The notes under the pieces are model-generated. The model saw nothing but the letters and a program-made list of their open reading frames with translations. It was not told where the DNA came from and searched no databases. Shown here in pieces: positions 29,602-44,869 of a stretch of DNA of 54,666 bases (the stretch's first letter is position 1; each line of letters begins with the position of its first letter). Location of the stretch: positions 1 to 54,666 of the IMG/VR virus record IMGVR_UViG_3300017963_000316. One strand, 5' to 3'. The DNA comes from a virus. Lineage: Duplodnaviria; Caudoviricetes. A program made the translations under genes and the position numbers.

Positions 29602-29602
29602 G

Positions 29603-32692: not shown

Positions 32693-32755
32693 ACTTTCTG
32701 CCCGTAGCTATCGGGACTTCATCGGCAACTTTCAAAAATTTTTTTCAACATTTTT

Positions 32756-32833
32756 TGGTTGCGGAGGTAGGACTCGAACCTACAACCTGCTGATTCAAAG
32801 TCAGCCGTCCAAACCAATTTAGACTACTCCGCA
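32756..32833 (-). tRNA. tRNA-Gln(UUG)
   Basis: Cloverleaf; anticodon arm GCTGA-CTTTGAA-TCAGC; CCA encoded. Confidence 0.9.
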
Positions 32834-32837
32834 ATAG

Positions 32838-33193
32838 TAAGCAGACCCGTAAGCCGAATTCTGTTTTATGTGAACATTTGTCTTGACTCAATGTTACCAT
32901 TGAATTCCTTGCCACCCACCCAAGACTATAGAGTGTAGCCCTCAGTCTTTGCTTGGTGTTGCACCAGATGGAGATTGCCCGTTTCACTCTCGTTAGAGTC
33001 AGGTGTTTGGGGAGCAGGTTGAAGATTCCCTTACTCTCCCTACCTAGACTACGCTTATCTTCCGAAGCCCTTTTCTAACAAGACTCGTCTCTGTTGCTCT
33101 AATCGTCAGATTACTCTGCCAGGGTGTTACCCTGCATCCTGCTCGTTGGTGTTCGGACTTTCCTCTCCGTAGAGCGTTCACTCAGTCTGCTTA
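32838..33193 (-). ncRNA. rnpB: RNase P RNA
   Basis: GAGGAAAGTCCG, GCAACAGAGA, GTGAAACG and ACAGAATTCGGCTTA conserved boxes; P1 TAAGCAGAC/GTCTGCTTA. Confidence 0.92.
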
Positions 33194-33907: not shown

Positions 33908-34132
33908 CTAACCTATTTCCTCTCCTAGCCTAATACGAAGTGGAATTACACCATATATCAAAATTGCATATTCAGGTAGTTGGTTCTTAATGTCTACAAA
34001 TGATGCAATTACATAATAATCATCGTTATCAAAGCAATGAATATACTCTTTAGAATTCAACCAATCAGATAACTTCTGACGTTCTAAAGCAGTTAAGCAA
34101 GTTTTAGCAACTAAATATGTACTTATGTCCAT
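33908..34132 (-). CDS. hypothetical protein
   Basis: ATG directly after the tRNA-Thr 3' end; stop abuts the next gene. Confidence 0.55.
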   Translation of the reverse strand: MDISTYLVAKTCLTALERQKLSDWLNSKEYIHCFDNDDYYVIASFVDIKNQLPEYAILIYGVIPLRIRLGEEIG

Positions 34133-34133
34133 G

Positions 34134-34207
34134 AGCCGCCGAGAGGAATCGAACCCCCATCCTACCGCTTACAAGGCGATTGCTCAACCAGTACGAGCTA
34201 CGGCGGC
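34134..34207 (-). tRNA. tRNA-Thr(UGU)
   Basis: Loop CTTGTAA; full CCA not encoded. Confidence 0.9.
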
Positions 34208-34579
34208 ATATCTTTCACGTCTCCATGCTCTACCATTTCCTTTGTTCTTACTCTTATATGTCGGGGTTTGTGAGTCACAGTTAGAGCATATTAAACGTAA
34301 GTTTCCAAGTAACCAATTGTCAGCGTTACCGTCTATATGGTCAAGAATAAGCACTATGGGTTCATTTAGCCACTCAGATAACCCACAAATCTCACATCTA
34401 TGACCTCTGGTTTCTATCAAGTACCATTTTTCTCTGCCTGATATTAACCTGTTAGACCTTTCAATCTCTTGTCTACGTAGACTACGTTGGTAATCCATCT
34501 GACATCTAAGACTACAATACTTTAAATTATGGTGCTCCGCACCACAATGTATACATTTCTTTTTACGATACCTGCTCAT
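34184..34579 (-). mobile_element. free-standing HNH (homing) endonuclease gene
   Basis: CEICG...LDHIDGNADN...NLRLICSNCDSQT; between two tRNA-Thr genes. Confidence 0.85.
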
Positions 34580-34580
34580 G

Positions 34581-34651
34581 AGCCACTGGTAAGACTTGAA
34601 CTTACTTCCGTTGTTTACGAAACAACTGCACTACCTATATGCTACAGTGGC
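34581..34651 (-). tRNA. tRNA-Thr(CGU)
   Basis: GTTGT-TTCGTAA-ACAAC; full CCA not encoded. Confidence 0.88.
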
Positions 34652-34795
34652 TAATCAAAATATTCTTGCCTTCCACAAATCCTGTGCATGTGTTTAACTT
34701 GCTGTCTAACCCAACGTCTAATCTTCATGTATCTATGATGAGAAGCTTTATAATGTTTTCGCACTTCTTTGTTTTTTAGAGCTTCTTTTTTAAAC

Positions 34796-35053
34796 TCACG
34801 GAAGTCTGTCATCTTCAGTTATACAACCACTTTCCCAAGTTCCATCAGGATGAATAAGGATAAAAATATCTTCATCACCCAACGTAATTTGTATACCACC
34901 TTCAGATGTTGGAGCGATGAATAGACCTTCAGTGAAGAATTTTGCCATCATTGTTGCTTTCTTGGTAATTGGTAATCCACCATAGCTGTCCCAATCATGC
35001 TCTAGTTCTAGAAAACTATCTATCTTCTTTGCTAGTTCTTTTCTCCAAGGCAT
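34796..35053 (-). CDS. hypothetical protein
   Basis: LEHDWDSYGG...PTSEGGIQ motif. Confidence 0.7.
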   Translation of the reverse strand: MPWRKELAKKIDSFLELEHDWDSYGGLPITKKATMMAKFFTEGLFIAPTSEGGIQITLGDEDIFILIHPDGTWESGCITEDDRLP

Positions 35054-35142
35054 TTCTATAAACCATCCCTATGTTTTTGCCATGCTTTGGTATTCTACTC
35101 TTTCGAGATTCCAGTTTTCGTTCTCTATTAGTTTGTTCGTAT

Positions 35143-35367
35143 TCACCATCCATTTGTAAAACACCTAAAACGCCAATGACACTTCTCACAATCTTTAACG
35201 TCTATTTCTGGTGGTAATCTACCTACGTGCCGAACAATGTTGATACAACTTTTGGTAGGAGTACCACAAGTAGGACAATAATGCCTAGTCGCCGCACCGT
35301 GTCCTACAACTCTAGTCTCACTGCCATTTGCGTACACTTTTTGACACTCAAAGCAGTAATATTTCAT
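35143..35367 (-). CDS. Zn-ribbon protein with C-terminal Cys module
   Basis: DCEKCHWRFRCFTN; ATG overlaps the tRNA CCA. Confidence 0.7.
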   Translation of the reverse strand: MKYYCFECQKVYANGSETRVVGHGAATRHYCPTCGTPTKSCINIVRHVGRLPPEIDVKDCEKCHWRFRCFTNGW

Positions 35368-35442
35368 GGTCAGGGTGGCTGGATTCGAACCAGCGACCTC
35401 CTGAGTCCAGGTCAGGTAGTCTGTCCACTGACGTACACCCTG
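35367..35442 (-). tRNA. tRNA-Pro(UGG) with atypical loop CCUGGAC
   Basis: Cloverleaf with C1-G72 and A73, CCA; C33/A37/C38. Confidence 0.8.
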
Positions 35443-35549
35443 ATAGGGGAAGCAAATGGCTTGGTATCACTTCCCACTTATTCTTTATACGTTTGGTTGA
35501 AACTCGTAGTTTCAATACTCAACACCAGTTCCAAGCAACTAAGTGTATG

Positions 35550-35624
35550 TCGGAATGAAAGGATTTGAACCTTCGACCCCATGCTCCCAAAGCATGTGCT
35601 CTAGCCTGACTGAGCTACACTCCG
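35550..35624 (-). tRNA. tRNA-Pro(UGG)
   Basis: CATGC-TTTGGGA-GCATG; no CCA. Confidence 0.9.
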
Positions 35625-36220
35625 ATGTCAATTACAACAGGTTTATTTACATTTTGGTAGTATTCATTAAGGACAGAAGCATTAACAAATGTTGTCTTAC
35701 CAATTCTTTTCTGCCCCGCTCCTTCGTGAATATGTCCGAAAACATGCACTTTAGGTTCAATCATGCTTGACCGCTCAAGTAAAGACTTTGAACCAAGATG
35801 ACTGCCACTTATACTGTAATCAAGGATTCCTTTTGGTGGACTATGCGTGATAAGAACATCAACCTTATCTGGAATACATTTCCAAATATCTGCTAGTCTT
35901 TCTTCAGACCTCATAAATGCCCAACCACCAAACCTTGATGTGTAAGGAGATGCCCAAAATATAAGACCATCAATTATAACAGCTTCGCTTATTAACATCG
36001 TAGCATTTATTATGATGTTCCTGTCACTCTCAAGGTAGAAATCGTGATTACCTGGTGTGAATAAAATATGTCTAAATTTTAAAGTACCAAGCCACGCATC
36101 AAATCTTTCAACTTCTTCTCTAGTCCCGTTGGACGTGGCATCACCTGCATGGATTAAAATATCACCATCGGGAAGTTCAGGAGTACGATTATGCGTGTCT
36201 GCTATTAAAACAATCCTCAT
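35615..36220 (-). CDS. metallophosphoesterase (calcineurin-like)
   Basis: ADTH, HAGD, PGNHD, THSPP, FGHIHE. Confidence 0.9.
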   Translation of the reverse strand: MRIVLIADTHNRTPELPDGDILIHAGDATSNGTREEVERFDAWLGTLKFRHILFTPGNHDFYLESDRNIIINATMLISEAVIIDGLIFWASPYTSRFGGWAFMRSEERLADIWKCIPDKVDVLITHSPPKGILDYSISGSHLGSKSLLERSSMIEPKVHVFGHIHEGAGQKRIGKTTFVNASVLNEYYQNVNKPVVIDIGV

Positions 36221-36227
36221 ATTATTT

Positions 36228-36301
36228 TGGTGGAGGTTACGAGACTCGAACTCGTCTTTTCTCATTGCAAGTGAGAGGTTCTCCCACTGAACTAAACCCC
36301 C
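36228..36301 (-). tRNA. tRNA-Ala(UGC)
   Basis: G3:U70; loop CTTGCAA; CCA. Confidence 0.92.
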
Positions 36302-36334
36302 ATTCTATACGAATTAGCTATTGAGCTTCACCCG

Positions 36335-36634
36335 TTATCCAACCTCGTCTACATATTTTCTGTTGTGGGTAATTCTTGCTTGTGTCATACTTGGTATTCT
36401 TTTTTCATCACCAGCCCTGTGTGTCCAACACCAAAATCTATTCTGGCAATCTTTACACTGTTCTTTAACCTTGACCCTTCCATTCAGCAAAGCCCACCAA
36501 CAAGTGGTGAGTTTAGTTCCACATACAGGACAACTAAGATTAAAGTCTGGTAATAACAACACGTCACAAACAGTACAGTATAATCGTTTTGGTTGTATTA
36601 GCTTTTCCATTCCTATATGCCAACAAGTTGTCAT
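36335..36634 (-). CDS. Zn-ribbon protein with Cys module
   Basis: QCKDCQNRFWCWTH; ATG overlaps the tRNA-Tyr CCA. Confidence 0.65.
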   Translation of the reverse strand: MTTCWHIGMEKLIQPKRLYCTVCDVLLLPDFNLSCPVCGTKLTTCWWALLNGRVKVKEQCKDCQNRFWCWTHRAGDEKRIPSMTQARITHNRKYVDEVG

Positions 36635-36720
36635 GGTGGGTTAGATAGGATTTGAACCTACTTAGTCCGAAGACGCCAGTTTTACAGACTGGTGCGACTC
36701 CCCATCTTCGCCGCTAACCC
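36634..36720 (-). tRNA. tRNA-Tyr(GUA)
   Basis: Long variable arm; loop CTGTAAA; CCA. Confidence 0.92.
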
Positions 36721-36769
36721 ATAAATAGGTAACGTTCCTGTAGGCATTTCTACCCACAGGATACATTCC

Positions 36770-36845
36770 TGGTGCCGACTAGAGGAGTCGAACCTCTTAC
36801 ACCTGGTGCTTCACGCCAGTGCTCTACCACATGAGCTTAGTCGGC
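36770..36845 (-). tRNA. tRNA-Phe(GAA)
   Basis: Cloverleaf; loop GTGAAGC; CCA. Confidence 0.85.
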
Positions 36846-36849
36846 ATAA

Positions 36850-36999
36850 ATCTGAGCGTTGGGCAGACTGTCTACCTTCCACAGAGCCTAGATTACTAGC
36901 ATGGAGGCTAAACTCCTAATCCAATAACTCTGGTTAGATTTTCCCCGACCTGCCACATCCTGCGGGCTAGTTAGACAATACCTGCTTACTAACTCAGAT
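36850..36999 (-). ncRNA. candidate rod-shaped structured RNA (6S-like?)
   Basis: Nested pairings ATCTGAG/CTCAGAT, GCAGG/TCTGC, TGTCTA/TAGACA, bubble, TGGATTA/TAATCTA. Confidence 0.5.
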
Positions 37000-37007
37000 G
37001 TCCCGAT

Positions 37008-37382
37008 TTAGGAAAATTTCTTCAGGAGTTTCTCCAAACGTGCTACTTCACCATTGGTTGTTCCAGCATTAGCTTTTGAAACGTTGATAGCTTGCTCGTT
37101 CTTCCTCTTGGTAGCTTCCCTCTCAGCTTTCAAGCGTGCGATACCCTGCTTCGTTTCCTCATCATTGCGAGCATCCTCGGTCTTGATTTTAGCGATTTGT
37201 CTCTCAGATGCAATAACATCTTTGTTGAGAGCCGCTATAGCCTCTTGACCTTCGGGTACTACGGTAAGAGGTAAATCCACAATCGCACACACACCCTTGA
37301 TTGTCCGTACATCGGACTTTTTGAAGCCTACCTCAGCTTCATAGCGTTCGAGTTCCCTTAACCCAAATTTCTCAGCAGTCAT
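37008..37382 (-). CDS. coiled-coil hypothetical protein
   Basis: AAGGA RBS; first gene after a promoter. Confidence 0.75.
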   Translation of the reverse strand: MTAEKFGLRELERYEAEVGFKKSDVRTIKGVCAIVDLPLTVVPEGQEAIAALNKDVIASERQIAKIKTEDARNDEETKQGIARLKAEREATKRKNEQAINVSKANAGTTNGEVARLEKLLKKFS

Positions 37383-37424
37383 TTCCGTTCCTTTCCTTTA
37401 TTTAGAATTTTTCATTCTACCTAT

Positions 37425-37456
37425 ATTATACCATATGCCAAGTGAGATGTCAAGCC
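37425..37456 (-). promoter_or_regulatory. sigma70-type promoter with extended -10
   Basis: GGCTTGACA TCTCACTTGGCATA TGG TATAAT. Confidence 0.85.
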
Positions 37457-37470
37457 CTTTCTACGGCTTG

Positions 37471-37553
37471 TGTCGGTGGAGAGATTTGAACTCTCATGCC
37501 CTTTTGAGCACTGGATTTTAAGTCCAGCGTGTATGCCATTCCACCACACCGAC
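37471..37553 (-). tRNA. tRNA-Leu(UAA)
   Basis: Loop CTTAAAA; long variable arm; no CCA. Confidence 0.92.
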
Positions 37554-37879
37554 TAATCTAACCACCCTTTTAACCATCTTAGTTTTCGGTGATTCCAACA
37601 TATTTCTTCACACTGTGAATCTGCGTTTAAGTGCTGTCTAACCTCCTGCATCGGTAGATAACCCCAATGTCTTCTAGGATTACCGCACATATAACAAGAA
37701 CATGGAACTTTTGTTTTACGGTAGATTCCTAATGTTCTTTCTAGCTCATCTTTTGTCCACCAAGAACGATAACGCCTACCTGATTGATTCTTATTTCGTG
37801 GGGAAAACCCCTCATACCTTTTAAAGACCTTTTCGGCTTTACGCCGAGCAACAGCCAATCTAGTTCCAAGCATACACAT
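37553..37879 (-). CDS. basic hypothetical protein
   Basis: CSCYMCGNPRR motif. Confidence 0.7.
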   Translation of the reverse strand: MCMLGTRLAVARRKAEKVFKRYEGFSPRNKNQSGRRYRSWWTKDELERTLGIYRKTKVPCSCYMCGNPRRHWGYLPMQEVRQHLNADSQCEEICWNHRKLRWLKGWLD

Positions 37880-37882
37880 CTC

Positions 37883-38020
37883 CTAGTTATCATGTAATCG
37901 CATCCTTGCCTCTAGTTCTCTTGGAGACTCCACATCAATATCATAGACCCAATCTATGCCATATAGATAAAGCACTGAATGTTCTATGACCCAAGTAGAA
38001 TATTCTGTTTGCTCAATCAT
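37883..38020 (-). CDS. small hypothetical protein
   Basis: MIEQTEY...; ATG overlaps the tRNA-Trp CCA. Confidence 0.45.
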   Translation of the reverse strand: MIEQTEYSTWVIEHSVLYLYGIDWVYDIDVESPRELEARMRLHDN

Positions 38021-38097
38021 GGCAGGAGCAGTAGGATTCGAACCCACATTTCCTCGTTTTGGAGACGAGTGTTTTAATCCTGTTAAACTATACTCCC
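38020..38097 (-). tRNA. tRNA-Trp(CCA)
   Basis: CTCGT-CTCCAAA-ACGAG; G73; CCA. Confidence 0.92.
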
Positions 38098-38804
38098 AAT
38101 AAACAATCAACCAGTTCATCTGCTGTCATGTAATATTTTGCTTCTAGCGTATTTTTGTTAGTAGAGATACCAAATCCAGCCGCTGAAATCATTTCTTTGT
38201 CGTTTATCTTGTCACCTATTGCTACAACATCATTTCTGTCTATATCTAGGTACATAGCAATAGCTTTTACACCTACACCTTTGGATATGGACTTCTTTTG
38301 AATGTCAAACGCTTCGCCGTTCCACATAACTTTTAAGTCACCATCAGTGTCATACTTACGGACAATCTCATAAACTTCTGGAATTTCTCTATCAGCATGT
38401 GCTGTCAAGATGAACTGTTTAGGTTCAAAACCTTTAATGTCTAGTTTAGATATTCCCCTTCGTATGTCATATATTTTATCAAAATACGCATCATCATAAG
38501 TAATGTGCTGAATTACCCTGCCGTCCACAAGGGACAAGTTCCCATTTTCAGCCTGTAATATTACTCCACCACCTAGAACCTTTGAATACATTCCTTGAAG
38601 GTAAATAAGACTTCTTCCAGAGGATACACAAATTCGTATCTTTTTCTTTAATCTATTAACCTTCTCTGCAAAGGAATCAGTTATAAGATTAGTTTTTACT
38701 ACAACCTTATGATAGTCTTCTTCGGTTGTCTCTAGGATTTCTGTACCTACTGGAACGGACACACCATCCGAATCAAGAATCAACAATTTAATATTACTGA
38801 ACAA
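38088..38804 (-). CDS. HAD-superfamily subfamily IIB hydrolase
   Basis: LDSDG, SSGRS, ENG, SKG, AIGDKIND. Confidence 0.88.
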   Translation of the reverse strand: MFSNIKLLILDSDGVSVPVGTEILETTEEDYHKVVVKTNLITDSFAEKVNRLKKKIRICVSSGRSLIYLQGMYSKVLGGGVILQAENGNLSLVDGRVIQHITYDDAYFDKIYDIRRGISKLDIKGFEPKQFILTAHADREIPEVYEIVRKYDTDGDLKVMWNGEAFDIQKKSISKGVGVKAIAMYLDIDRNDVVAIGDKINDKEMISAAGFGISTNKNTLEAKYYMTADELVDCLLGV

Positions 38805-38826
38805 TCATAACTCCTTGTTTTTTAGT

Positions 38827-38914
38827 TGGTGTCCGAAGCAGGATTTGAACCTGCACCCCTGTTACGGGAATAGGGTTTGAGCCTATCGTGTCTACCGTGT
38901 TCCACCATTCGGAC
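38827..38914 (-). tRNA. tRNA-Leu(CAA)
   Basis: Loop CTCAAAC; long variable arm; CCA. Confidence 0.92.
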
Positions 38915-39086
38915 TTACATCTCAAAATTTTCGAAGTCTTTAACTCTGAAGCTGAAGAAATCACCTTTCTTTACTTCTTGGTCATCTTCTATTCTAGTCC
39001 ACCCTGAACTATGAAAATTAACCACCCAAAATAAATCCACAAACTCTGGTTTTAATATCTTTTGTTTTAGTTCTAGTGCTGTCAAA

Positions 39087-39458
39087 TTACTTCTCCATTA
39101 AACAATCGCCATCTGTGTTATAAAGGTCATTTACAAATTCACAATCATCAACTCCACATCGTTCACAAGTAATGTAGTGATGACATATAGGACATTCCTC
39201 ACCACGTGGTCGTGCTACTAATACCATATTACTTGGGTCTGCTCTGTAGCATACTGGACATAGAAAGTCATGGTTACCTATAATACGCTTCAGTCTGGCA
39301 TGTACCATCAATAGGTCTAGTTGTGGAAATCCTCTTAAAGTTAAAGTATCACCCACTTTCTTGTTCGTATAACAGATGTATCGGATTGGACAATCATCAC
39401 ATTGTTCATTACATCTGTATCGGTAGATGATGTCACCTTGGTCTACCACTATATCCAT
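39087..39458 (-). CDS. Cys-rich protein with Cys module
   Basis: CNEQCDDCPIRYICYTN; ATG 6 nt after the -10 box. Confidence 0.7.
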   Translation of the reverse strand: MDIVVDQGDIIYRYRCNEQCDDCPIRYICYTNKKVGDTLTLRGFPQLDLLMVHARLKRIIGNHDFLCPVCYRADPSNMVLVARPRGEECPICHHYITCERCGVDDCEFVNDLYNTDGDCLMEK

Positions 39459-39464
39459 ACTACT

Positions 39465-39496
39465 ATAATAGCACAAGCCTCATTAAAAGTCAAGCC
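39465..39496 (-). promoter_or_regulatory. sigma70-type promoter
   Basis: GGCTTGACT TTTAATGAGGCTTG TGC TATTAT. Confidence 0.75.
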
Positions 39497-39617
39497 TCGG
39501 ATAACCTTCGCCACATACAATATGTAGGTGCTAATATTGGCATTGCTGGTTTATCACAATACTTTTTTCCATCGAGTTCTTTCTTGAATGGACAGTCTTC
39601 TTTGTTATGGCAGGGTA

Positions 39618-39836
39618 TTAACATCCAAATCTCCCGCAGTCATAAACTACAATTGTTTCCCCATCCGATTCATAGAAGCAATTGGAACAGTGTGTTCCAC
39701 CGCAAGCGTTACAGTGCCAAGAATAATCCGCAAATTCAAAAGTTGCTATCTCATCTTGTTCGTAATGTATCTTACCTGATTTAGCACAGAGGATACGCTT
39801 ACCCTTTTGCACTTTATAACCATAGACGTTATTCAT
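39618..39836 (-). CDS. Cys-rich hypothetical protein
   Basis: ATG overlaps the tRNA-Gly CCA. Confidence 0.6.
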   Translation of the reverse strand: MNNVYGYKVQKGKRILCAKSGKIHYEQDEIATFEFADYSWHCNACGGTHCSNCFYESDGETIVVYDCGRFGC

Positions 39837-39911
39837 GGAGCGAGTGGCGGGAATCGAACCCGCTACCTTCTGGATGGCAACCAGACGTTCAACCTCGTGA
39901 ACTTCACCCGC
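39836..39911 (-). tRNA. tRNA-Gly(GCC)
   Basis: Loop TTGCCAT; U73; CCA. Confidence 0.92.
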
Positions 39912-40230
39912 ATTTTACTTTTCGTGGGGATGAAAATGTACCATAAGCGGGACTACCATTAACTACAGCATAACTTAGGACTATTAGTTCATCACCAATT
40001 TCCACAAGAAGTGATGCCGCACCATTGACACAAACCTCTTTCTCGTCACCTTTTATTGCATAGGTCACAAATCGCTTACCGTTGGTAACGTTAAGAACAT
40101 GAACCTGCTCATATTCCAAAATATCTGCTTCGTGCATCCATTTGGGGTCAAGTGTTATGCTACCATCACACCTAGAGTCTGCATCAGTAACTTGTAAACC
40201 GTATAGTTTACTTTTAAGCATTACTCGCAT
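39904..40230 (-). CDS. panD: aspartate 1-decarboxylase (pyruvoyl-dependent)
   Basis: MLKSK, GSITLD self-cleavage site, NGKRFVTYAI, VNGAA. Confidence 0.88.
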   Translation of the reverse strand: MRVMLKSKLYGLQVTDADSRCDGSITLDPKWMHEADILEYEQVHVLNVTNGKRFVTYAIKGDEKEVCVNGAASLLVEIGDELIVLSYAVVNGSPAYGTFSSPRKVKCG

Positions 40231-40421
40231 AAATCTCTCCTTGTTTCATATAGTTTTTTGATTGCAGAACTAACCTCAGCTTTAGTACCAAGTATAGTTC
40301 CAGTTGTGTAGCAATAAAATCTGTGTCTACAGTTATCACATTTGCTGTGGCAACCATCGCATATAAGGATTGTGGCGGTATTACCAAAAGCTGAATCGTG
40401 CATCACTATAGGTCTATCCAT
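40221..40421 (-). CDS. small protein with Cys module
   Basis: CHSKCDNCRHRFYCYTT. Confidence 0.65.
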   Translation of the reverse strand: MDRPIVMHDSAFGNTATILICDGCHSKCDNCRHRFYCYTTGTILGTKAEVSSAIKKLYETRRDLCE

Positions 40422-40422
40422 A

Positions 40423-40497
40423 TGGGGTGACTGACGGGATTCGAACCCGTGTTACCTGGGTCACAACCAAGCATCCTTCCATTGAATGACAGCCACC
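40423..40497 (-). tRNA. tRNA-His(GUG)
   Basis: G-1:C73; loop TTGTGAC. Confidence 0.92.
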
Positions 40498-40500
40498 ATA

Positions 40501-40779
40501 TTAAACTAAAGGTTTTACATTTTCAGTACCTAAAATCTTCATACCTATTAACTTATGTCTTTTACTTCCTTTAACATAAATCTTACTGCCTGTAACACCT
40601 GCTAAAAATCTTGAGGGGCTTTTATAAGTCTTTATTTTTGACCAATCAACCTCTACGATTTCTATTCGTGACGCTGTGAAACACTTAAATCGTATTGCAC
40701 ACACATCACAACCACTACCATCACAAACAAACATATCGTTACCAGACGGTTTATTTATTAGCTTAATGAACCTGTTCAC
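40501..40779 (-). CDS. hypothetical protein with Cys module
   Basis: CDGSGCDVCAIRFKCFTA. Confidence 0.7.
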   Translation of the reverse strand: MNRFIKLINKPSGNDMFVCDGSGCDVCAIRFKCFTASRIEIVEVDWSKIKTYKSPSRFLAGVTGSKIYVKGSKRHKLIGMKILGTENVKPLV

Positions 40780-40978
40780 GTCTTGATAACTCCTTAGCTA
40801 AATCAATGCCACTCCAAGAATGTACCACTATAGATGTCCAACATCTAAACCTGAGCCAGCAAGTATCACAATCCCTCGGTGTTTTGTCACAAATAATCTT
40901 GTCAGGTAGGATTCTAGGAGTAGAACGGTATATTTCTACGTCTCTTTTGTTCCTTTCTAACTTTTCTGAACTAATCAT
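40763..40978 (-). CDS. hypothetical protein with Cys module
   Basis: CDKTPRDCDTCWLRFRCWTS. Confidence 0.7.
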   Translation of the reverse strand: MISSEKLERNKRDVEIYRSTPRILPDKIICDKTPRDCDTCWLRFRCWTSIVVHSWSGIDLAKELSRREQVH

Positions 40979-40980
40979 TT

Positions 40981-41054
40981 TGGCTCTCCTGTCAGGGTTC
41001 GAACCTGAGTCCGTTGGTTCAGAGCCAACTGTGCTACCACTACACTACAGGAGA
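40981..41054 (-). tRNA. tRNA-Gln(CUG)
   Basis: U1-A72; loop CTCTGAA; GCCA. Confidence 0.92.
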
Positions 41055-41324
41055 TTACTTATATAAATGTTTATAATATTTCCAATTCCTATTCCATCCC
41101 AAGTCGTGGCAAGTCTTTGGTGATAAGAAACCTAGTTCTTCTGCCCTGTATCTAGCTGACTTGTAATGCCCGAAGATGTATCTGATACCTCTTTTATCAC
41201 CAAGTAGACCAGAATCAAAACTACTTTTCCACTGGTTATTAACACCAAATCTTTTAGTATTCAACAATAAGTGTACTATGAGCTTCCAGTTTTTACAGAT
41301 AAAGATAATCCCGTGTATGTTCAT
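41055..41324 (-). CDS. hypothetical protein
   Basis: ATGA coupling; stop abuts the tRNA. Confidence 0.55.
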   Translation of the reverse strand: MNIHGIIFICKNWKLIVHLLLNTKRFGVNNQWKSSFDSGLLGDKRGIRYIFGHYKSARYRAEELGFLSPKTCHDLGWNRNWKYYKHLYK

Positions 41325-41821
41325 AATAAACCAAGCAACTTGTCTAGCGAAAGCGGGTAGTAATCAAGCATCTCAGCACTTACGTTAATCGTTCTTCTTT
41401 CCTTGTTGACTAGAGGGTATAGTTCTGGATAATTGTTATGATGATGCCCATGAATCATCCAACCATCCCACTTGGGTTTATCATAGTCAGGAGAATGTAT
41501 TAATAAGAACCTTACTCCACCCAACTCTACTATGTGCCATCTGTGAACTGGTGTGATTCCTCTAATACTTTCTTTCCTGTCATGATTACCCTTGATAAGA
41601 ACTTTCTTACCATTTAGTTTTTGCCACCACCAACTACCATCCCTACTTCCTCTGCCATACGCAATGTCACCCAAGTAATAAACCGTATCTTCTACGGTCA
41701 CCGTCTCGTTCCAACGTTTAACAAGAGTCTCATTCATTTCCTCAACAGAACTGAACGGTCTATTGCAATACTTGATGATGTTTGTATGGTCTAGGTGTAA
41801 ATCACCAATTAAGTATATCAT
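41321..41821 (-). CDS. metallophosphoesterase (calcineurin-like)
   Basis: MIYLIGDLH, YYLGD, GNHD, IHGHHH; start overlaps the tRNA CCA. Confidence 0.9.
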   Translation of the reverse strand: MIYLIGDLHLDHTNIIKYCNRPFSSVEEMNETLVKRWNETVTVEDTVYYLGDIAYGRGSRDGSWWWQKLNGKKVLIKGNHDRKESIRGITPVHRWHIVELGGVRFLLIHSPDYDKPKWDGWMIHGHHHNNYPELYPLVNKERRTINVSAEMLDYYPLSLDKLLGLL

Positions 41822-41895
41822 GGTTGCGGGGGTGAGAATCGAACTCACGTAGACCTGCTTATGAGACAAGTCGGGTAACCAACAACCTCCCCACT
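41821..41895 (-). tRNA. tRNA-Met(CAU), atypical (1:72 mismatch, irregular D arm)
   Basis: Loop CTCATAA; T arm GTGAG-TTCGATT-CTCAC; ACCA. Confidence 0.7.
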
Positions 41896-41897
41896 GT

Positions 41898-42047
41898 TTA
41901 ATGATTCTTGAAGAAACAATCTTCTTCACACGGCGTACCATCAGGTAGTGTCCAAGGTGGAACTCTACTCCCACATCCTCTGCACTTGTCAGGTACGTTT
42001 CCAATATGGTCAAGGATAAAATCTAATATTTTATCTACTATTTTCAT
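41898..42047 (-). CDS. small hypothetical protein
   Basis: MKIVDKIL...; ATG overlaps the tRNA-Glu CCA. Confidence 0.5.
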   Translation of the reverse strand: MKIVDKILDFILDHIGNVPDKCRGCGSRVPPWTLPDGTPCEEDCFFKNH

Positions 42048-42120
42048 GGTAGCGATAGAGGGAATCGAACCCTCGTTGCTAGGTTGAAAGCCTAGTTGCC
42101 TGCCATTAGCAGATACCGCC
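42047..42120 (-). tRNA. tRNA-Glu(UUC)
   Basis: CTAGG-CTTTCAA-CCTAG; CCA. Confidence 0.9.
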
Positions 42121-42263
42121 AATATAGATTGCTCTGTAGTCTCCGCACCGCAAAATTACGTTGTCTTCCTTCCACCTATCATTCAATAATATTATAAGAA
42201 GGTCACCAATTATTATACGATTGTTATTTACCATTGACTTAGGAGCACTACGCTTTTTCATTT

Positions 42264-42339
42264 TGGCTCTGGTGGTTGGACTCGAACCAACATATTTACG
42301 GTTAACAGCCGTTCCTATTACCGATTATAGTACACCAGA
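42264..42339 (-). tRNA. tRNA-Asn(GUU)
   Basis: U1-A72; loop CTGTTAA; GCCA. Confidence 0.9.
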
Positions 42340-42633
42340 ATCGAAACCGAAATCATCTGGATAAGCAGAATAAATTGCGTCTGCCTCACCATTTACCACA
42401 TCCACAATAACTGTTCTTTCAAAAACTCTCGTACTAGCACATACAAACTTGAAGTCACAGTGACGGCATTTAGGTTTGAAACCAAAATTATCACTTTTAC
42501 CCATCCTGCAAAGCTTAGTACGGTGATTGAGTGAATGACAAGCGGATGGGTCTTTTACTTTCCCCTTAACAAATCTAAAGATAGTGATTGTTTTACATTC
42601 ACGACAAATACCCAAATAAACCCTTTTGTTCAT
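42325..42633 (-). CDS. hypothetical protein with Cys module
   Basis: KCRHCDFKFVCAST; start overlaps a CCA, stop lies inside tRNA-Asn. Confidence 0.65.
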   Translation of the reverse strand: MNKRVYLGICRECKTITIFRFVKGKVKDPSACHSLNHRTKLCRMGKSDNFGFKPKCRHCDFKFVCASTRVFERTVIVDVVNGEADAIYSAYPDDFGFDSGVL

Positions 42634-42708
42634 GGAGGCACTGGTCGGAATCGAACCGACTTAAAATCGCTTTGCAGGCGACCGCCTTATCCAATTAGCT
42701 ACAGTGCC
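42633..42708 (-). tRNA. tRNA-Cys(GCA)
   Basis: Loop CTGCAAA; U73; CCA. Confidence 0.92.
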
Positions 42709-42969
42709 TTATAATCTTGTTACCAGATTAAACGCTCTGATATAGAATTCCTCATCTGGTATTTCCCAATAATTTTTATACCTCAAATCAGCTAACATCT
42801 CGGACGGTAATTCTCGTAGTTTCTCATCTATATCTATACACCACAAATCAAGTCCTTCACTCGTAGTATAACAAGTAAATCTAAAAGGACACCCATCACA
42901 TCTTGTATGACAAGGGAACTTTACTACTAATTCTTGTTCAGCATTTTTAATAGTAACTATCTTTTTCAT
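42709..42969 (-). CDS. hypothetical protein with Cys module
   Basis: CHTRCDGCPFRFTCYTT. Confidence 0.7.
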   Translation of the reverse strand: MKKIVTIKNAEQELVVKFPCHTRCDGCPFRFTCYTTSEGLDLWCIDIDEKLRELPSEMLADLRYKNYWEIPDEEFYIRAFNLVTRL

Positions 42970-43130
42970 GCACTGCCAGTCCCACGAGGTCCATTACCAC
43001 CTTTAGATGCTAACCAAAGTAGGAAAGCAATAAACAACATAACCCAAACAAATGCCCAAAACATTGTCATAGCTATAAATTCTAACATGAAGTCTTTACC
43101 TCTCATAGTAAGACCTCACCGTTCCTCACT

Positions 43131-43206
43131 TGGCGGTCTATACGGGTTTCGATCCCGTCCCTCATCCTTGACAGGGATGTATGCTCACCATTAACACCTA
43201 TAGACC
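43131..43206 (-). tRNA. tRNA-Asp(GUC)
   Basis: Loop CTGTCAA; G73; T-loop variant ATCGAAA. Confidence 0.9.
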
Positions 43207-43593
43207 TCTACCTGTTCCTGTAACGTATAGAATATTTGGGAACTTTACCCATGAACGTTCTATACCAATTCTCTCGTCATCTTCCTCTACTATTGCTCCT
43301 AGCTTAAACCCATCACCGAAATTCTCTCTATAACTTCTGCTCCAATAACCAGTATCAGCTACTTGCTTGTAGAGTCCCAATCTTAAACATTTGGGTAGGT
43401 GGAACTCTGCTTTGAATCTCTCATAACTTCTATATTGGTCATGTACTTCTTCAGTTTCCACCTTGACAGGATTAACGTGAATCCTATCATCAGTAAAGCA
43501 CTCAAACCTATGGAGACAAGTATTACAATACTCAGAATCCCAAGTCCAAGTTCTTTTCATCGTTCTGTCATCTGTTGCTGTATATAAATACAT
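43198..43593 (-). CDS. hypothetical protein with Cys module
   Basis: YCNTCLHRFECFTD. Confidence 0.7.
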   Translation of the reverse strand: MYLYTATDDRTMKRTWTWDSEYCNTCLHRFECFTDDRIHVNPVKVETEEVHDQYRSYERFKAEFHLPKCLRLGLYKQVADTGYWSRSYRENFGDGFKLGAIVEEDDERIGIERSWVKFPNILYVTGTGRGL

Positions 43594-43603
43594 AATCTTT
43601 CAT

Positions 43604-43690
43604 TGGTGCGGGTGATAGGAGTCGAACCTACACGCATGTTACTGCACTACGTTCTAAGCGTAGGGTGTCTACCAGTTTCACCACACCCGC
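43604..43690 (-). tRNA. tRNA-Leu(UAG)
   Basis: Loop CTTAGAA; long variable arm; CCA. Confidence 0.92.
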
Positions 43691-43768
43691 ATGATGGGGA
43701 AGTACCAGTATTGCATGACGTTCATCAATTGCCTTTGTGTACCTTTTCATCGGCTGTACTCCACCCCG

Positions 43769-43848
43769 ACTCGCTGGCGGGACTTGAACCCGCATTTACA
43801 GATCCACTTACGGTTAACAGTTTAGGAAACTGCCCCGACTACAGCGAG
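43769..43848 (-). ncRNA. D-arm-less tRNA-like RNA (apparent CCU anticodon)
   Basis: CTCGCTG/CAGCGAG acceptor, GCGGG-TTCAAGT-CCCGC T arm, GCAGT-TTCCTAA-ACTGT hairpin, no D stem. Confidence 0.65.
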
Positions 43849-43870
43849 ATAAAAGTAAGATTGGCTTACC

Positions 43871-43946
43871 TGGCACCCCTGCCGAGATTTGAACTCGGAC
43901 TATTGGTTTAGAAGACCAATGTGTTCTCCAGTTACACTACAGGGGC
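43871..43946 (-). tRNA. tRNA-Arg(UCU)
   Basis: Loop CTTCTAA; GCCA. Confidence 0.92.
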
Positions 43947-44363
43947 AAATATTTTCCATTCGTTTTTATATTTTTCGTATTTACCACAATTATCATTAGC
44001 ACGTTTATCAAGTTCTCTATGTGGATACAATGATACGTATATTGTGCTAATAGCTTCTATAGGAATAAAATACCACACATCCTCTGGTATTATATAACAA
44101 CCAATAATATCAACATCATCTTTTGTGTATTTTACTTTTGTCTTACTCCCTTTACCAATTATTAGTCTGTAAGTTTTATTGTCACTATTCTTCAATTTTT
44201 GCTGGTATGACACACTTTTAATTTGCAATCTATTGAAAGTTCTATTACTTTCTATAATATAATCATATCCTACAGTATTAAAAGGAGTGGCTACAACAAG
44301 ACCACGAAGCATCGCTTCATATAAAAACTTAGCTTGTGCCGTTTCTCCTTGTTTTAATGACAT
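43932..44363 (-). mobile_element. free-standing PD-(D/E)XK (group I intron-associated type) homing endonuclease gene
   Basis: GETAQ..., P...GYDYIIE...RLQIKS, YTKDDVD, WYFIP; AT-rich; between two tRNA-Arg genes. Confidence 0.8.
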
Positions 44364-44374
44364 TTCATTCTCCT

Positions 44375-44452
44375 TGGACCCCCTGGCGAGACTCGAACTC
44401 GCAACAACCTTGGTTCGTAGCCAAGTGCTCTATTCCATTGAGCTACAGGGGG
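44375..44452 (-). tRNA. tRNA-Arg(ACG)
   Basis: CTTGG-CTACGAA-CCAAG; CCA. Confidence 0.9.
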
Positions 44453-44453
44453 A

Positions 44454-44549
44454 TGGTAGGAACGGAAGGACTCGAACCTTCAACCTTGGGGAAATCAGCC
44501 CCTAATACCGCTTATAAGACGGTTGCACTGCCAATTGTGCTACGTTCCC
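44454..44549 (-). tRNA. tRNA-Ile(UAU) with long variable arm
   Basis: ACCGT-CTTATAA-GCGGT; 25-nt variable region with GGGG/CCCC stem; A73; CCA. Confidence 0.8.
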
Positions 44550-44791
44550 ATCCTCCAATTATTGAAACATTCTCGTATCTTTCTAGGAGACCCCATTTTC
44601 CTAAGCTCATAGTAAAGACATGGGTCTGCAATTGTCACGTACCATTTAAGCGTATAACATTTAAATCTTAACTTACATTCGTTACACTTAACAACACCGT
44701 TACCATTACAAGAAAACGAAACAAAGTCATTATTCTTGTAGGAAAATGGATGTTCAGGAACATCATCGTAAATACGAATTTCTTTCTGCAT
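44540..44791 (-). CDS. hypothetical protein with Cys module
   Basis: CNGNGVVKCNECKLRFKCYT; start overlaps a CCA, stop is tRNA U8A9G10. Confidence 0.7.
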   Translation of the reverse strand: MQKEIRIYDDVPEHPFSYKNNDFVSFSCNGNGVVKCNECKLRFKCYTLKWYVTIADPCLYYELRKMGSPRKIRECFNNWRMGT

Positions 44792-44869
44792 GGTAGGGCT
44801 ATGGGGGTTCGAACCCCAGTTCACACTTCGAGAGAGTGTTGTCCTTATTGTCCACTAGACGATAGCCCC
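44791..44869 (-). tRNA. tRNA-Glu(CUC)
   Basis: ACACT-CTCTCGA-AGTGT; CCA. Confidence 0.88.

What the first reader, a model, noticed from the sequence alone, without database searches (positions are those of the whole stretch)
33908..44869. tRNA punctuation I: start codons built from the tRNA 3' CCA (CCA-UG)
Seen: for eight tRNAs the terminal A of the encoded CCA is the A of the next ORF's ATG (35367, 36634, 38020, 39836, 41821, 42047, 42633, 44791). Two tRNA-Thr genes end U-CA-UG with the same effect (34132, 34579), and others have ATG 0-2 nt after CCA. The 41821 case gives the canonical metallophosphoesterase N-terminus MIYLIGDLH, which supports a real start, and the upstream sequence is tRNA with no evident SD. 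Inference: 3' processing decides translation. Cleavage after the discriminator (RNase Z-like) would release a near-leaderless CCAUG mRNA, with the phage CCA enzyme completing the tRNA. Keeping the encoded CCA would destroy the start codon.
Basis: partly seen in the sequence, partly recalled or inferred. Interest (0 to 1): 0.82.

Follow-up and report, generated by a model that had tools for sequence, protein, structure and literature searches.

The report
Start codons fused to tRNA ends
In this uncultivated phage and its relatives, about half of the tRNA genes are followed at once by the ATG of a real protein gene, with no ribosome-binding site and often sharing the tRNA's last A, which suggests that cutting out the tRNA is what makes the message translatable.

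Summary
Eight of the 25 CCA-encoding tRNAs in the window end CCA|TG, against about 6% by chance (p about 4e-5). Two tRNA-Thr genes end U-C-ATG.

The pattern recurs in four independent relatives: 19 of 79 CCA-encoding tRNAs, against 31 of 539 control phage tRNAs.

The real rule is wider than CCATG. An ATG that opens an ORF lies 0-6 nt past the discriminator at 64 of 117 eligible tRNAs, against 14 of 278 in controls. Phage T5 has none in 23.

- These starts have no Shine-Dalgarno sequence.
- They use ATG almost only: 65 of 66, against 74 of 106 for SD-led genes.
- They open real proteins, with Pfam matches from residue 1.
- The junction type persists at a tRNA while the ORF behind it is swapped.
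- A relative with no CATG sites places the ATG 1-2 nt after CCA, so nearness is selected, not the pentamer.

The array is three operons driven by consensus promoters. The phage encodes a CCA-adding enzyme and an RNase P RNA.

Best reading (about 0.42): a cut at the tRNA 3' end creates leaderless-type mRNAs, and the tRNA end is rebuilt. No RNA data exist. Known RNase Z enzymes avoid CCA or cut after it. Many ORF stop codons lie inside the next tRNA, so simple punctuation fails.

The parts
35367..35442 (-). tRNA-Pro(UGG). Its A76 (35367) is the A of the next ATG.
35143..35367 (-). 74-aa Cys-rich ORF that starts at CCA|TG.
   Evidence: The ortholog in G001 has the same CCATG junction and 72% amino-acid identity. 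dN is 0.19 and dS is saturated. It carries the CxxCxxRFxCFT motif.
36634..36720 (-). tRNA-Tyr. A76 is shared with the ATG.
36335..36634 (-). 99-aa ORF that starts at CCA|TG.
   Evidence: Homologs in G001 (79% identity, aligned from residue 9) and G002. In G001 a different 43-aa ORF abuts tRNA-Tyr, and this homolog follows it through an ATGA-type overlap.
38020..38097 (-). tRNA-Trp. A76 is shared with the ATG.
37883..38020 (-). 45-aa ORF that starts at CCA|TG.
   Evidence: The ortholog in G004 follows a CCA-less tRNA-Trp as G|C-ATG, at 64% identity, with dN 0.18 and dS 0.84.
39836..39911 (-). tRNA-Gly(GCC). A76 is shared with the ATG.
39618..39836 (-). 72-aa Cys/His-rich ORF that starts at CCA|TG.
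   Evidence: Ten metagenome homologs at 59-92% identity all align from the same M1. One called product runs upstream through a translated tRNA T-arm.
41821..41895 (-). tRNA-Met(CAU). A76 is shared with the ATG.
41321..41821 (-). 166-aa phosphoesterase that starts MIYLIGDLH at CCA|TG.
   Evidence: phrog_547, E 9e-43, residues 1-163. Metallophos_2 is weak.
42047..42120 (-). tRNA-Glu(UUC). A76 is shared with the ATG.
41898..42047 (-). 49-aa ORF that starts at CCA|TG. It ends 2 nt before tRNA-Met.
   Evidence: No family and no homolog were found, so this is the weakest of the eight.
42633..42708 (-). tRNA-Cys. A76 is shared with the ATG.
42325..42633 (-). 102-aa ORF that starts at CCA|TG. Its stop lies 15 nt inside tRNA-Asn.
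   Evidence: Only weak paralog hits.
44791..44869 (-). tRNA-Glu(CUC). A76 is shared with the ATG.
   Evidence: The junction is also CCATG in G002, G003 and G004, with unrelated ORFs behind it.
44540..44791 (-). 83-aa ORF that starts at CCA|TG. Its stop lies 10 nt inside tRNA-Ile(UAU).
   Evidence: It carries the CNECKLRFKCYT motif.
34184..34651 (-). CCA-less tRNA-Thr(CGU), 34580-34651, ending U73-C. It is followed at once by the ATG (34579) of a 131-aa HNH endonuclease.
   Evidence: phrog_14736, E 1e-20.
33908..34207 (-). CCA-less tRNA-Thr(UGU), 34133-34207, ending U73-C. It is followed at once by the ATG (34132) of a 74-aa ORF.
40221..41054 (-). tRNA-Gln(CUG) then CCA-AA-ATG (ORF 40763-40978), and tRNA-His then CCA-T-ATG (ORF 40221-40421). 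Both ORFs are small Cys-motif proteins.
35615..36301 (-). tRNA-Ala, then 7 nt without an SD, then the ATG (36220) of a second phosphoesterase-like ORF that begins MRIVLIADTH.
   Evidence: G004 has the same arrangement.
37425..37453 (-). Consensus promoter TTGACA-17-TATAAT with TG. It lies after tRNA-Leu(UAA) and drives the unit that runs down to the terminator near 32660.
   Evidence: Conserved after Leu-UAA in G001, G002 and G005.
46207..46235 (-). Consensus promoter (12 of 12 matches, with TG) after tRNA-Ser(GCU). It drives the unit that holds six of the eight CCATG junctions.
47165..47193 (-). Consensus promoter (12 of 12 matches, with TG) at the head of the array.
32834..33193 (-). Phage-encoded RNase P RNA, bacterial class A, at the end of the last tRNA operon.
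   Evidence: 188 bits, model positions 1-367 of 367.
32655..32833 (-). tRNA-Gln(UUG), 32759-32833, found by Rfam only, butting onto the RNase P RNA. A stem-loop with a T-run terminator follows at about 32690-32655.
   Evidence: The terminator was read by eye from the sequence.
29552..30970 (+). tRNA nucleotidyltransferase (CCA-adding enzyme).
   Evidence: phrog_2244, E 2e-70.

Best explanation
What the sequences show:
- The tRNA array is three long operons read from consensus sigma-70-type promoters. tRNA genes alternate with small protein genes.
- In this phage clade the protein genes that follow a tRNA usually begin 0-6 nt past the discriminator. Most often the A of the ATG sits at tRNA position 76.
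- These starts have no Shine-Dalgarno sequence, use ATG almost only, and have an open, A-rich start region.

What is inferred:
- A host endonuclease cuts the precursor at the tRNA 3' end, somewhere between N73 and one or two bases past position 76.
- That cut frees the downstream ORF as an mRNA with a 5'-monophosphate and a leader of 0-3 nt.
- Ribosomes start on this mRNA by the 5'-end-dependent, AUG-dependent route used for leaderless mRNAs.
- The tRNA loses part or all of its CCA, and the phage's own CCA-adding enzyme rebuilds it.
- Because A76 is shared, one RNA molecule cannot give both a tRNA with its encoded CCA and an intact start codon. Processing and translation are therefore tied together.
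- Because many ORFs end inside the next tRNA, translation has to finish before RNase P cuts that tRNA.
For: 1. Enrichment and replication.
- CCATG: 8 of 25 in the window, 19 of 79 in four relatives, 31 of 539 in controls.
- An ORF-opening ATG at 0-6 nt: 64 of 117 eligible tRNAs, against 14 of 278 in controls, p = 1e-27. In controls the first ORF-opening ATG mostly lies 14-30 nt away.
- Phage T5: 0 of 23, with SD-led starts 14-37 nt away.

2. No SD. Only 3 of 72 abutting ATGs have an SD motif. The median duplex energy is +0.1 kcal/mol, against -5.9 for 51 other window genes and -3.0 at random positions.

3. ATG almost only. The counts are 65 ATG, 1 GTG and 0 TTG, against 74, 18 and 14 for SD-led genes, p = 3.5e-7. 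Leaderless mRNAs show the same bias: 4.4% non-AUG against 27% in Caulobacter (PMC8459731, passages read).

4. The starts are real.
- Pfam matches begin at residues 1-6 in relatives: PDDEXK_5 covers residues 1-130 against profile positions 1-135 of 138, and NADAR and cREC_REC also match from the first residues.
- The phosphoesterase matches from residue 1.
- Ten homologs of the Gly ORF share M1.
- dN is well below dS in two ortholog pairs.
- The start regions are as open as SD-led ones: 0.50 against 0.54, with random ATGs at 0.43.

5. No promoter-like site is placed to start transcription at any of the ten junction ATGs. There are only three 12-of-12 promoters.

6. The junction persists while the ORF behind it is swapped, for example at His, Glu-CUC, Met and Asn. 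G005 has 0 CATG in 32 kb, against about 114 expected. It puts the ATG 1-2 nt after CCA instead.

7. The 3' end looks rebuilt.
- Encoded CCA toggles with CA, CG or CT at the same tRNA across relatives.
- C74 is kept in 151 of 153 tRNAs.
- The phage encodes a CCA-adding enzyme.
- Abutting starts are equally common after CCA-encoding tRNAs (46 of 104) and CCA-less tRNAs (21 of 49).

8. The unrelated lineage G006 has CCA-less tRNAs with N73-CU-ATG at 7 of 21.

9. There are precedents for cutting plus repair. In P. acnes, cleavage was mapped inside encoded CCA (PMC3848588, passages). Mitochondrial tRNA genes can overlap the next gene by 1 nt, and the truncated tRNA is repaired (PMC4787750, abstract).
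Against: - There are no RNA 5'-end, ribosome or protein data for this phage.
- Each extra leader nucleotide roughly halves leaderless initiation in Caulobacter (PMC8459731). Yet the commonest position is 2 nt past the discriminator, not 0. After a cut at N73 this would be a 2-nt leader.
- B. subtilis RNase Z is slowed 1520-fold by CCA, and archaeal RNase Z enzymes cut after CCA (PMC7479834, abstract). In E. coli, RNase E cuts 1-3 nt downstream of CCA (PMC2190699, abstract start in the search listing). Any of these would spare the tRNA but destroy a CCA|UG start.
- No RNase Z-like gene (PF12706) was found in 5 phage records.
- 45 of 77 ORFs that precede a tRNA have their stop codon inside it. 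A fully punctuated mRNA would therefore lack a stop.
- Three SD-less starts lie 10-13 nt past the discriminator (Ala, Ser-UGA, Leu-UAG). These are not leaderless under any cut near the tRNA.
- Only 24-32 of 51 other window genes show an SD motif. The host may therefore tolerate SD-less internal starts.
Confidence: 0.42

Rival explanations
1. Ribosomes start inside the uncut polycistronic RNA without an SD. The folded tRNA only keeps the following AUG single-stranded, and an A-rich second codon helps. Strong genome compaction has removed every spacer, so the ATG ends up against the tRNA, or sharing its last A.
For: - Compaction acts at both ends. 65 of 77 ORF stops lie inside the next tRNA or within 5 nt of it.
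- SD-less starts also occur 10-13 nt after tRNAs: Ala, Ser-UGA and Leu-UAG.
- Only 24-32 of 51 other window genes have an SD motif.
- The base after the ATG is A in 46 of 67 abutting starts, against 47 of 105 SD-led starts, and the start regions are open.
- Stops inside the next tRNA require that RNA to be uncut during translation.
Against: - Pure compaction predicts a pile-up at the smallest allowed spacing. CCA-less tRNAs almost never use N73|ATG (1 case). G005 uses CCA+1 or CCA+2 but never CCA-ATG, although that is allowed there.
- T5 and the control arrays keep SD-sized spacers.
- An acceptor helix ending 3 nt before the AUG would sit where the 30S subunit normally holds single-stranded mRNA or the SD helix. 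This point is general knowledge and was not tested.
Confidence: 0.3
2. Termination and re-initiation across the tRNA. A ribosome that finishes the upstream ORF inside the 5' part of a tRNA has already unfolded it. It then slides about 60-70 nt and restarts at the first AUG, at the tRNA's 3' end. A transcript would be read either as a chain of ORFs or folded into tRNAs.
For: - Stops cluster at fixed tRNA positions. The stop ends at tRNA base 10 in 9 cases, base 15 in 6 cases and base 1 in 7 cases.
- Most abutting starts in the window have an ORF ending at or in that same tRNA.
Against: - The Tyr and Pro CCATG starts in the window follow another tRNA, not an ORF.
- Re-initiation over tens of nucleotides without an SD is inefficient in studied bacteria (recalled, not checked here).
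Confidence: 0.08
3. The junctions are a by-product with little or no translation. ORF cassettes, many of them selfish nucleases, are exchanged by recombination within flanking tRNA genes and squeezed by deletions. Poor translation is tolerated, or even favoured for toxic nucleases.
For: - HNH and PD-(D/E)XK endonucleases are among the abutting ORFs.
- ORF content differs greatly between relatives while tRNA order is kept.
Against: - Purifying selection and full-length domains starting at the abutting ATG.
- The ATG-only rule and open, A-rich start regions point to selection for initiation.
- Housekeeping-type enzymes use these starts: phosphoesterase, NUDIX, NADAR and cREC_REC.
Confidence: 0.1

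Closest known systems
Mitochondrial tRNA punctuation (model of Ojala, Montoya and Attardi; recalled, not read here)
   Same: Polycistronic transcripts in which tRNAs flank ORFs. The ORFs start at or within a few nucleotides of the tRNA 3' end without an SD. The tRNA 3' ends are completed by a CCA-adding enzyme.
   Different: This is a bacteriophage in a host that uses SD for other genes. 104 of 153 tRNAs still encode CCA, and the A is shared with the ATG. Stop codons lie inside the next tRNA instead of being completed by polyadenylation. SD-led genes sit in the same operons. Processing has not been shown.
One-nucleotide overlap of metazoan mitochondrial tRNA genes with the downstream gene, with repair of the truncated tRNA (PMC4787750, abstract)
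   Same: One nucleotide is shared between a tRNA 3' end and the next gene. The downstream product is released intact and the tRNA is repaired by nucleotide addition.
   Different: There the downstream gene is another tRNA and the repair uses poly(A) polymerase plus the CCA enzyme. Here the downstream gene is an mRNA start codon and the repair is only inferred.
Bacterial leaderless mRNAs such as lambda cI (PMC8459731, passages)
   Same: No SD, a strong preference for AUG, and a need for an open 5' region.
   Different: Classical leaderless mRNAs arise by transcription starting at the A of AUG. Here no promoter is placed for that, so the 5' end would have to come from RNA cleavage.
Phage T5 tRNA region (NC_005859)
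   Same: tRNA genes interspersed with small ORFs and HNH endonucleases on one strand, with several promoters.
   Different: In T5, 0 of 23 tRNAs have an abutting ATG. The ORF starts lie 14-37 nt past the discriminator, behind SD-like sequences.
Stop-start overlaps of coupled bacterial genes (ATGA, TAATG; general knowledge)
   Same: A single base is shared between the end of one gene and the ATG of the next in a compact genome. 7 of the 8 window cases read CCATGA.
   Different: The upstream gene is a tRNA and is not translated. There is no terminating ribosome to hand over and no SD hidden in upstream coding sequence.

Membership tests
Mitochondrial-type tRNA punctuation | ORFs and tRNAs are co-transcribed as one polycistronic precursor. 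| tested here: inconclusive
   The DNA fits. There are three 12-of-12 promoters, no promoter-like site at the ten junction ATGs, and no minus-strand terminators inside the array. No RNA data could be obtained.
Mitochondrial-type tRNA punctuation | The mRNA 5' end is made by tRNA 3' cleavage. | not testable with these tools
   This needs 5'-end mapping.
Mitochondrial-type tRNA punctuation | The start codon lies 0-3 nt from the tRNA end, with no ribosome-binding sequence. | tested here: met
   Offset from the discriminator, with number of cases: 0 nt: 1; 1 nt: 9; 2 nt: 28; 3 nt: 6; 4 nt: 9; 5 nt: 12; 6 nt: 2. An SD motif is present at 3 of 72.
Mitochondrial-type tRNA punctuation | CCA is not encoded and is added after cleavage. 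| tested here: not met
   104 of 153 tRNAs encode CCA. The encoded CCA is labile, and a CCA-adding enzyme is encoded.
Mitochondrial-type tRNA punctuation | The mRNA 3' end is made by RNase P at the next tRNA, leaving a usable stop. | tested here: not met
   45 of 77 stops lie inside the next tRNA.
Bacterial leaderless mRNA | AUG at the very 5' end of the RNA. | not testable with these tools
   This needs 5'-end mapping.
Bacterial leaderless mRNA | Strong dependence on AUG rather than GUG or UUG. | tested here: met
   65 of 66 abutting starts are ATG, against 74 of 106 SD-led starts.
Bacterial leaderless mRNA | The 5' end is produced by transcription initiation at the start codon. | tested here: not met
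   No promoter-like -10 element ends about 7 nt upstream of any of the ten junction ATGs.
T5-type phage tRNA/ORF mosaic | tRNAs are interspersed with small ORFs and homing-type endonucleases on one strand. | tested here: met
T5-type phage tRNA/ORF mosaic | ORFs start behind an SD, 14-37 nt after the tRNA. | tested here: not met
   In the window only 4 of 20 ORFs that follow a tRNA are SD-led: those after Met-2, Arg-ACG, Asp and Leu-CAA. T5 has 0 of 23 abutting starts.

The most novel reading that the evidence does not exclude
Each tRNA-ORF-tRNA unit is a dual-use RNA that must choose its fate.
- A cut at or inside the 3' CCA of the upstream tRNA creates a leaderless message.
- The 3' end of that message is protected by the still-attached downstream tRNA, and its stop codon lies inside that tRNA.
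- Only after translation does RNase P release the second tRNA and discard the message. Here RNase P is supplied by the phage itself.
- The phage CCA-adding enzyme then rebuilds every clipped end.

The shared A76 would be a built-in switch between making tRNA and making protein. The phage's own RNase P RNA and CCA enzyme would set the timing. This would be the first tRNA-punctuated, processing-dependent translation system outside organelles.
Probability: 0.25. Interest if true: 0.88.

Novelty: new variant of a known kind. Interest (0 to 1): 0.74.

Why it matters
If the inferred mechanism holds, this phage clade and at least one unrelated lineage use tRNA processing to create translatable mRNAs. 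That logic is so far known from mitochondria, not from bacteria or phages.

It would matter in four ways:
- It would show that bacterial ribosomes routinely translate RNase-generated leaderless messages.
- It would explain why some phages carry their own CCA-adding enzyme.
- It would give a compact, SD-free way to co-express tRNAs and proteins.
- It matters for annotation. Gene callers that demand an SD or forbid overlap with tRNAs will miss or mis-start these genes. One database homolog was extended through the tRNA.

The claim is directly testable with a cloned tRNA-ORF reporter.

Tried and rejected
- Near and distant DNA searches of the isolated-phage collection found no relative, only scattered tRNA matches. 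A protein search with the CCA enzyme gave at best 36-39% identity, to unannotated gut phage records and a Clostridioides phage. The host remains unknown.
- The first search for relatives, with the 41821 phosphoesterase, gave 5 loci at 34-35% identity with no tRNAs. These were not used further.
- RNA evidence: the look-up of sequencing runs with kind rna on window 34000-43999 listed no RNA holder.
- A phage RNase Z was sought with PF12706 in G001, G002, G004, G005 and G006. There were 0 matches. The window itself was not searched with that family.
I used the other tRNAs in the 80 returned loci as a control set instead and dropped the 75 seed tRNAs. That control may contain relatives of the clade, which would make the tests conservative.
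- G003 is nearly identical to G004 over the array, so I left it out of all pooled counts except the SD count (72 junctions, six genomes).
- The Phe junction in the window (CCAGGAATG, 34 codons) would run through tRNA-Tyr and is probably spurious. It is still counted among the 14 of 31.
- Literature: nine searches found no paper describing start codons abutting or overlapping phage tRNA 3' ends, or a phage-encoded RNase P RNA (listings and abstract starts only). Subscription papers, including the 1980s T5 tRNA-region papers, are not in the library. PMC4681348 was checked and has nothing relevant. No supplementary files were opened.
- I considered and rejected a promoter inside the T-arm that would start transcription at A76. 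No site fits. I also rejected the tRNA body docking in the ribosome like a tmRNA, because the 3' end of a ribosome-bound tRNA lies far from the decoding site (general knowledge).

Full report
**The object.** The window is a 54,666-base viral contig, estimated about 37% complete. ARAGORN finds 31 tRNA genes, all on the minus strand between 33338 and 53980. Rfam adds two more, at 32759-32833 and 45413-45517. Small ORFs lie between the tRNAs. There is no close relative among isolated phages.

**Checking the observation.** I printed the 3' end of every tRNA with its downstream sequence and located each discriminator by acceptor-stem pairing.
- Eight tRNAs read CCA|TG: Pro 35367, Tyr 36634, Trp 38020, Gly 39836, Met 41821, Glu-UUC 42047, Cys 42633 and Glu-CUC 44791. 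All eight ATGs open ORFs of 45-166 codons.
- Two CCA-less tRNA-Thr genes read U73-C-ATG (34579, 34132).
- Twenty-five of the 31 tRNAs encode CCA.
- Eight of 25 compares with 54 of 986 for TG after any CCA in the window (p = 3.8e-5), and with 1/16 (p = 9.6e-5).

**Relatives.**
- A search with the window's tRNA nucleotidyltransferase (29552-30970, phrog_2244) found five viral contigs with 64-78% identical enzymes and syntenic tRNA arrays. I fetched the rest of each array and merged the pieces.
- G003 and G004 are near-duplicates, so G003 is left out of pooled counts.
- CCATG junctions number 9 of 27 in G001, 5 of 22 in G002, 5 of 16 in G004 and 0 of 14 in G005. That is 19 of 79 in genomes that did not suggest the hypothesis.

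**Controls.**
- A collection scan returned 80 unrelated viral loci. After dropping the 75 seed tRNAs, 31 of 539 CCA-encoding tRNAs (5.8%) read CCATG. This is the chance level.
- Fisher tests give 1.2e-4 for the window, 1.7e-6 for the relatives alone and 8e-9 for the five genomes together.

**The wider rule.**
- Counting any ATG that opens at least 30 codons within 0-6 nt after the discriminator gives 67 of 153 tRNAs in the clade, against 26 of 710 control tRNAs.
- I then restricted both sets to tRNAs with more than 120 nt before the next tRNA. This gives 64 of 117 against 14 of 278 (p = 1e-27). In the controls the first ORF-opening ATG lies mostly 14-30 nt away, which is room for an SD.
- The offsets peak at 2 (28 cases, A of the ATG at position 76), with 9 at 1, 6 at 3, 9 at 4 and 12 at 5.
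- G005 contains no CATG at all in 32 kb, against about 114 expected. This is presumably restriction avoidance. It has no CCATG, but 13 of its 26 tRNAs still have abutting ATGs, mostly 1-2 nt after CCA. So closeness is selected, not the pentamer.
- Phage T5 has the same mosaic of tRNAs, small ORFs and HNH endonucleases. It has 0 of 23 abutting starts, and its ORFs begin 14-37 nt downstream behind SD-like sequences.

**Are they real starts?**
- The 41821 ORF matches a phage phosphoesterase family from residue 1. The next in-frame Met would remove the GDxH motif (read).
- In relatives, abutting ORFs match Pfam domains from their first residues:
  - PDDEXK_5: residues 1-130 against profile positions 1-135 of 138.
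  - NADAR: residues 6-140 against positions 7-161 of 163.
  - cREC_REC: residues 6-106 against positions 5-86 of 88.
  - NUDIX also matches.
- The Pro ORF is conserved in G001 with the same junction (dN 0.19, dS saturated). The Trp ORF is conserved in G004 behind a CCA-less tRNA-Trp as C-ATG (dN 0.18, dS 0.84).
- The Gly ORF has ten metagenome homologs that all align from the same first Met. One was called longer, through a translated tRNA T-arm.
- The Glu-UUC and Cys ORFs remain without outside support.

**How the starts look.**
- Abutting ATGs have essentially no anti-SD complementarity: 3 of 72 have a motif, and the median energy is +0.1 kcal/mol. For 51 other window genes the median is -5.9, and at random positions it is -3.0.
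- They use ATG in 65 of 66 cases. SD-led genes of the same genomes use 74 ATG, 18 GTG and 14 TTG (p = 3.5e-7). The SD-led set was picked by best SD, so its numbers are rough.
- The first 18 nt are predicted to be as open as at SD-led starts and more open than at random ATGs. The base after the ATG is A in 46 of 67.
- Absence of an SD, dependence on AUG and an open 5' region are the three determinants reported for leaderless mRNAs (PMC8459731, passages).

**Transcription.** Only three perfect promoters (TTGACA-17-TATAAT with TG) lie on the minus strand, at 47193, 46235 and 37453. None of the weaker hits is placed to start an RNA at a junction ATG, and no terminator-like site interrupts the array. 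The last unit ends with an RNase P RNA, a tRNA-Gln and a hairpin with a T-run near 32660. The ORFs are therefore co-transcribed with the tRNAs.

**The tRNA 3' ends.**
- C74 is present in 151 of 153 tRNAs.
- The same tRNA is CCA-encoding in one genome and CA-, CG- or CT- in another, for example Cys, Trp, Phe and Arg-ACG.
- Abutting ORFs are equally frequent after CCA-encoding tRNAs (46 of 104) and CCA-less tRNAs (21 of 49).
- Together with the phage CCA-adding enzyme, this fits ends that are cut and rebuilt.
- Retention of C74 fits recognition of the RCCA end by the L15 GGU loop of class A RNase P RNA. That role is recalled. The GGU is visible in the phage RNA.

**The other end of the ORFs.** Of 77 ORFs that precede a tRNA, 45 have their stop codon inside the tRNA. 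The stop ends at tRNA base 10 in 9 cases, base 15 in 6 cases and base 1 in 7 cases. Another 20 end 0-5 nt before the tRNA. RNase P cleavage would remove these stops. Translation must therefore use RNA whose downstream tRNA is still attached. This rules out a simple copy of the mitochondrial model.

**Turnover.** tRNA order is conserved, but the ORFs between tRNAs differ greatly among relatives. Abutting junctions persist at the same tRNA with unrelated ORFs behind them: His in all five genomes, Glu-CUC in all five, and Met and Asn in several. The cREC_REC gene follows tRNA-Met as CCATG in G003 and G004, and follows tRNA-Asn as CCAAGATG in G005.

**A second lineage.** Among the control loci, one contig (G006; 112 kb; about 32% G+C in the stretches fetched) carries CCA-less tRNAs that end N73-C-U-A. 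It has N73-CU-ATG at 7 of 21 tRNAs, plus CCTATG and CCTTATG. Again the A of the ATG sits at position 76. Here an endonucleolytic cut after the discriminator is obligatory for tRNA maturation.

**Mechanism.** The best-supported reading is that a cut at the tRNA 3' end makes the mRNA 5' end and that initiation is of the leaderless type. The clipped tRNA is then completed by the phage enzyme. I put this at about 0.42. The arguments against are these:
- Short leaders reduce leaderless initiation.
- Known RNase Z enzymes avoid CCA or cut after it.
- RNase E cuts 1-3 nt after CCA in E. coli (listing).
- No phage RNase Z was found.
- Stops lie inside downstream tRNAs.
- Three SD-less starts lie 10-13 nt from the tRNA.

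Cleavage inside an encoded CCA has been seen in P. acnes (PMC3848588). One-nucleotide tRNA overlaps repaired after cleavage are known in mitochondria (PMC4787750). The main rival, at about 0.30, is SD-independent initiation on the uncut precursor in a maximally compacted array. Re-initiation across the tRNA and a non-functional by-product are less likely.

**Novelty.** Nine literature searches found no description of this arrangement in phages or bacteria. Older subscription papers on T5 are outside the library. I rate it a new variant of a known kind: tRNA punctuation and leaderless initiation, in a phage, with a shared A76.

Noticed in passing
window 32834-33193 (-): A full-length bacterial class A RNase P RNA (188 bits, model positions 1-367 of 367) sits at the end of the last tRNA operon, with the conserved core and the L15 GGU. 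It butts directly onto tRNA-Gln(UUG) at 32759-32833. Copies above the cut-off also lie in the arrays of G001 (175.6 bits) and G002 (196 bits). G005 has a weak match (59.8 bits). G004 and G006 have none. Two literature searches found no report of a phage-encoded RNase P RNA (listings only).
   Followed up: partly
window, 30 sites on both coding strands (e.g. 212-658 +, 19435-19647 +, 40221-40421 -, 48992-49177 -): The 12-residue motif CxxCxxR[F/Y]xC[F/Y/W/M][T/S] occurs in frame in 30 otherwise dissimilar ORFs of the window. Chance expectation is 0.0004. It lies at N-terminal, middle or C-terminal positions with varied codons, including both AGR and CGN for Arg. There are 6-13 copies on the tRNA strand of each relative's array. 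The spacing C-x2-C-x5-C resembles WhiB-type or iron-sulfur cluster loops. No Pfam family matched.
   Followed up: partly
window array and G001, G002, G004, G005: ORFs that precede a tRNA mostly end inside it. 45 of 77 stop codons lie within the tRNA 5' part, often using the conserved U8-A9-G10 as TAG. Another 20 end 0-5 nt before the tRNA.
   Followed up: yes
G005 (L015 + L020), 32 kb: CATG is totally absent (0 against about 114 expected). GGCC is absent from all six arrays. GATC is absent in G001 and G002 and rare in the window (5 sites). This looks like restriction-site avoidance, and it shapes the junction sequences.
   Followed up: partly
G006 (L140-L142): An unrelated phage contig, about 32% G+C in the stretches fetched, has CCA-less tRNAs that nearly all end N73-C-U-A or N73-C-C-U. 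Seven of its 21 tRNAs are followed by ATG as N73-CU-ATG.
   Followed up: partly
G003 (L013), upstream of the Trp-ORF homolog: tRNA-Trp has been replaced by an ORF, but its last 13 or so bases (…GTACTCCCGC) remain directly before the ATG of the conserved 45-aa ORF. This is a footprint of the former tRNA-ORF junction.
   Followed up: no
window 45413-45517 (-) and 44454-44549 (-): Rfam finds a 105-nt tRNA between the two tRNA-Lys genes that ARAGORN missed. tRNA-Ile(UAU) is 96 nt long. Both may carry an insertion or an intron.
   Followed up: no
L013:14945-15313 (-), L020:1737-2120 (-), L011:19734-20174 (-), L011:13846-14310 (-): The genes abutting tRNAs in relatives include a cyclic-phosphate-processing receiver domain (cREC_REC), NADAR and NUDIX. 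Together with the window's two phosphoesterases, these suggest a cargo for RNA-end or nucleotide repair inside the array.
   Followed up: no
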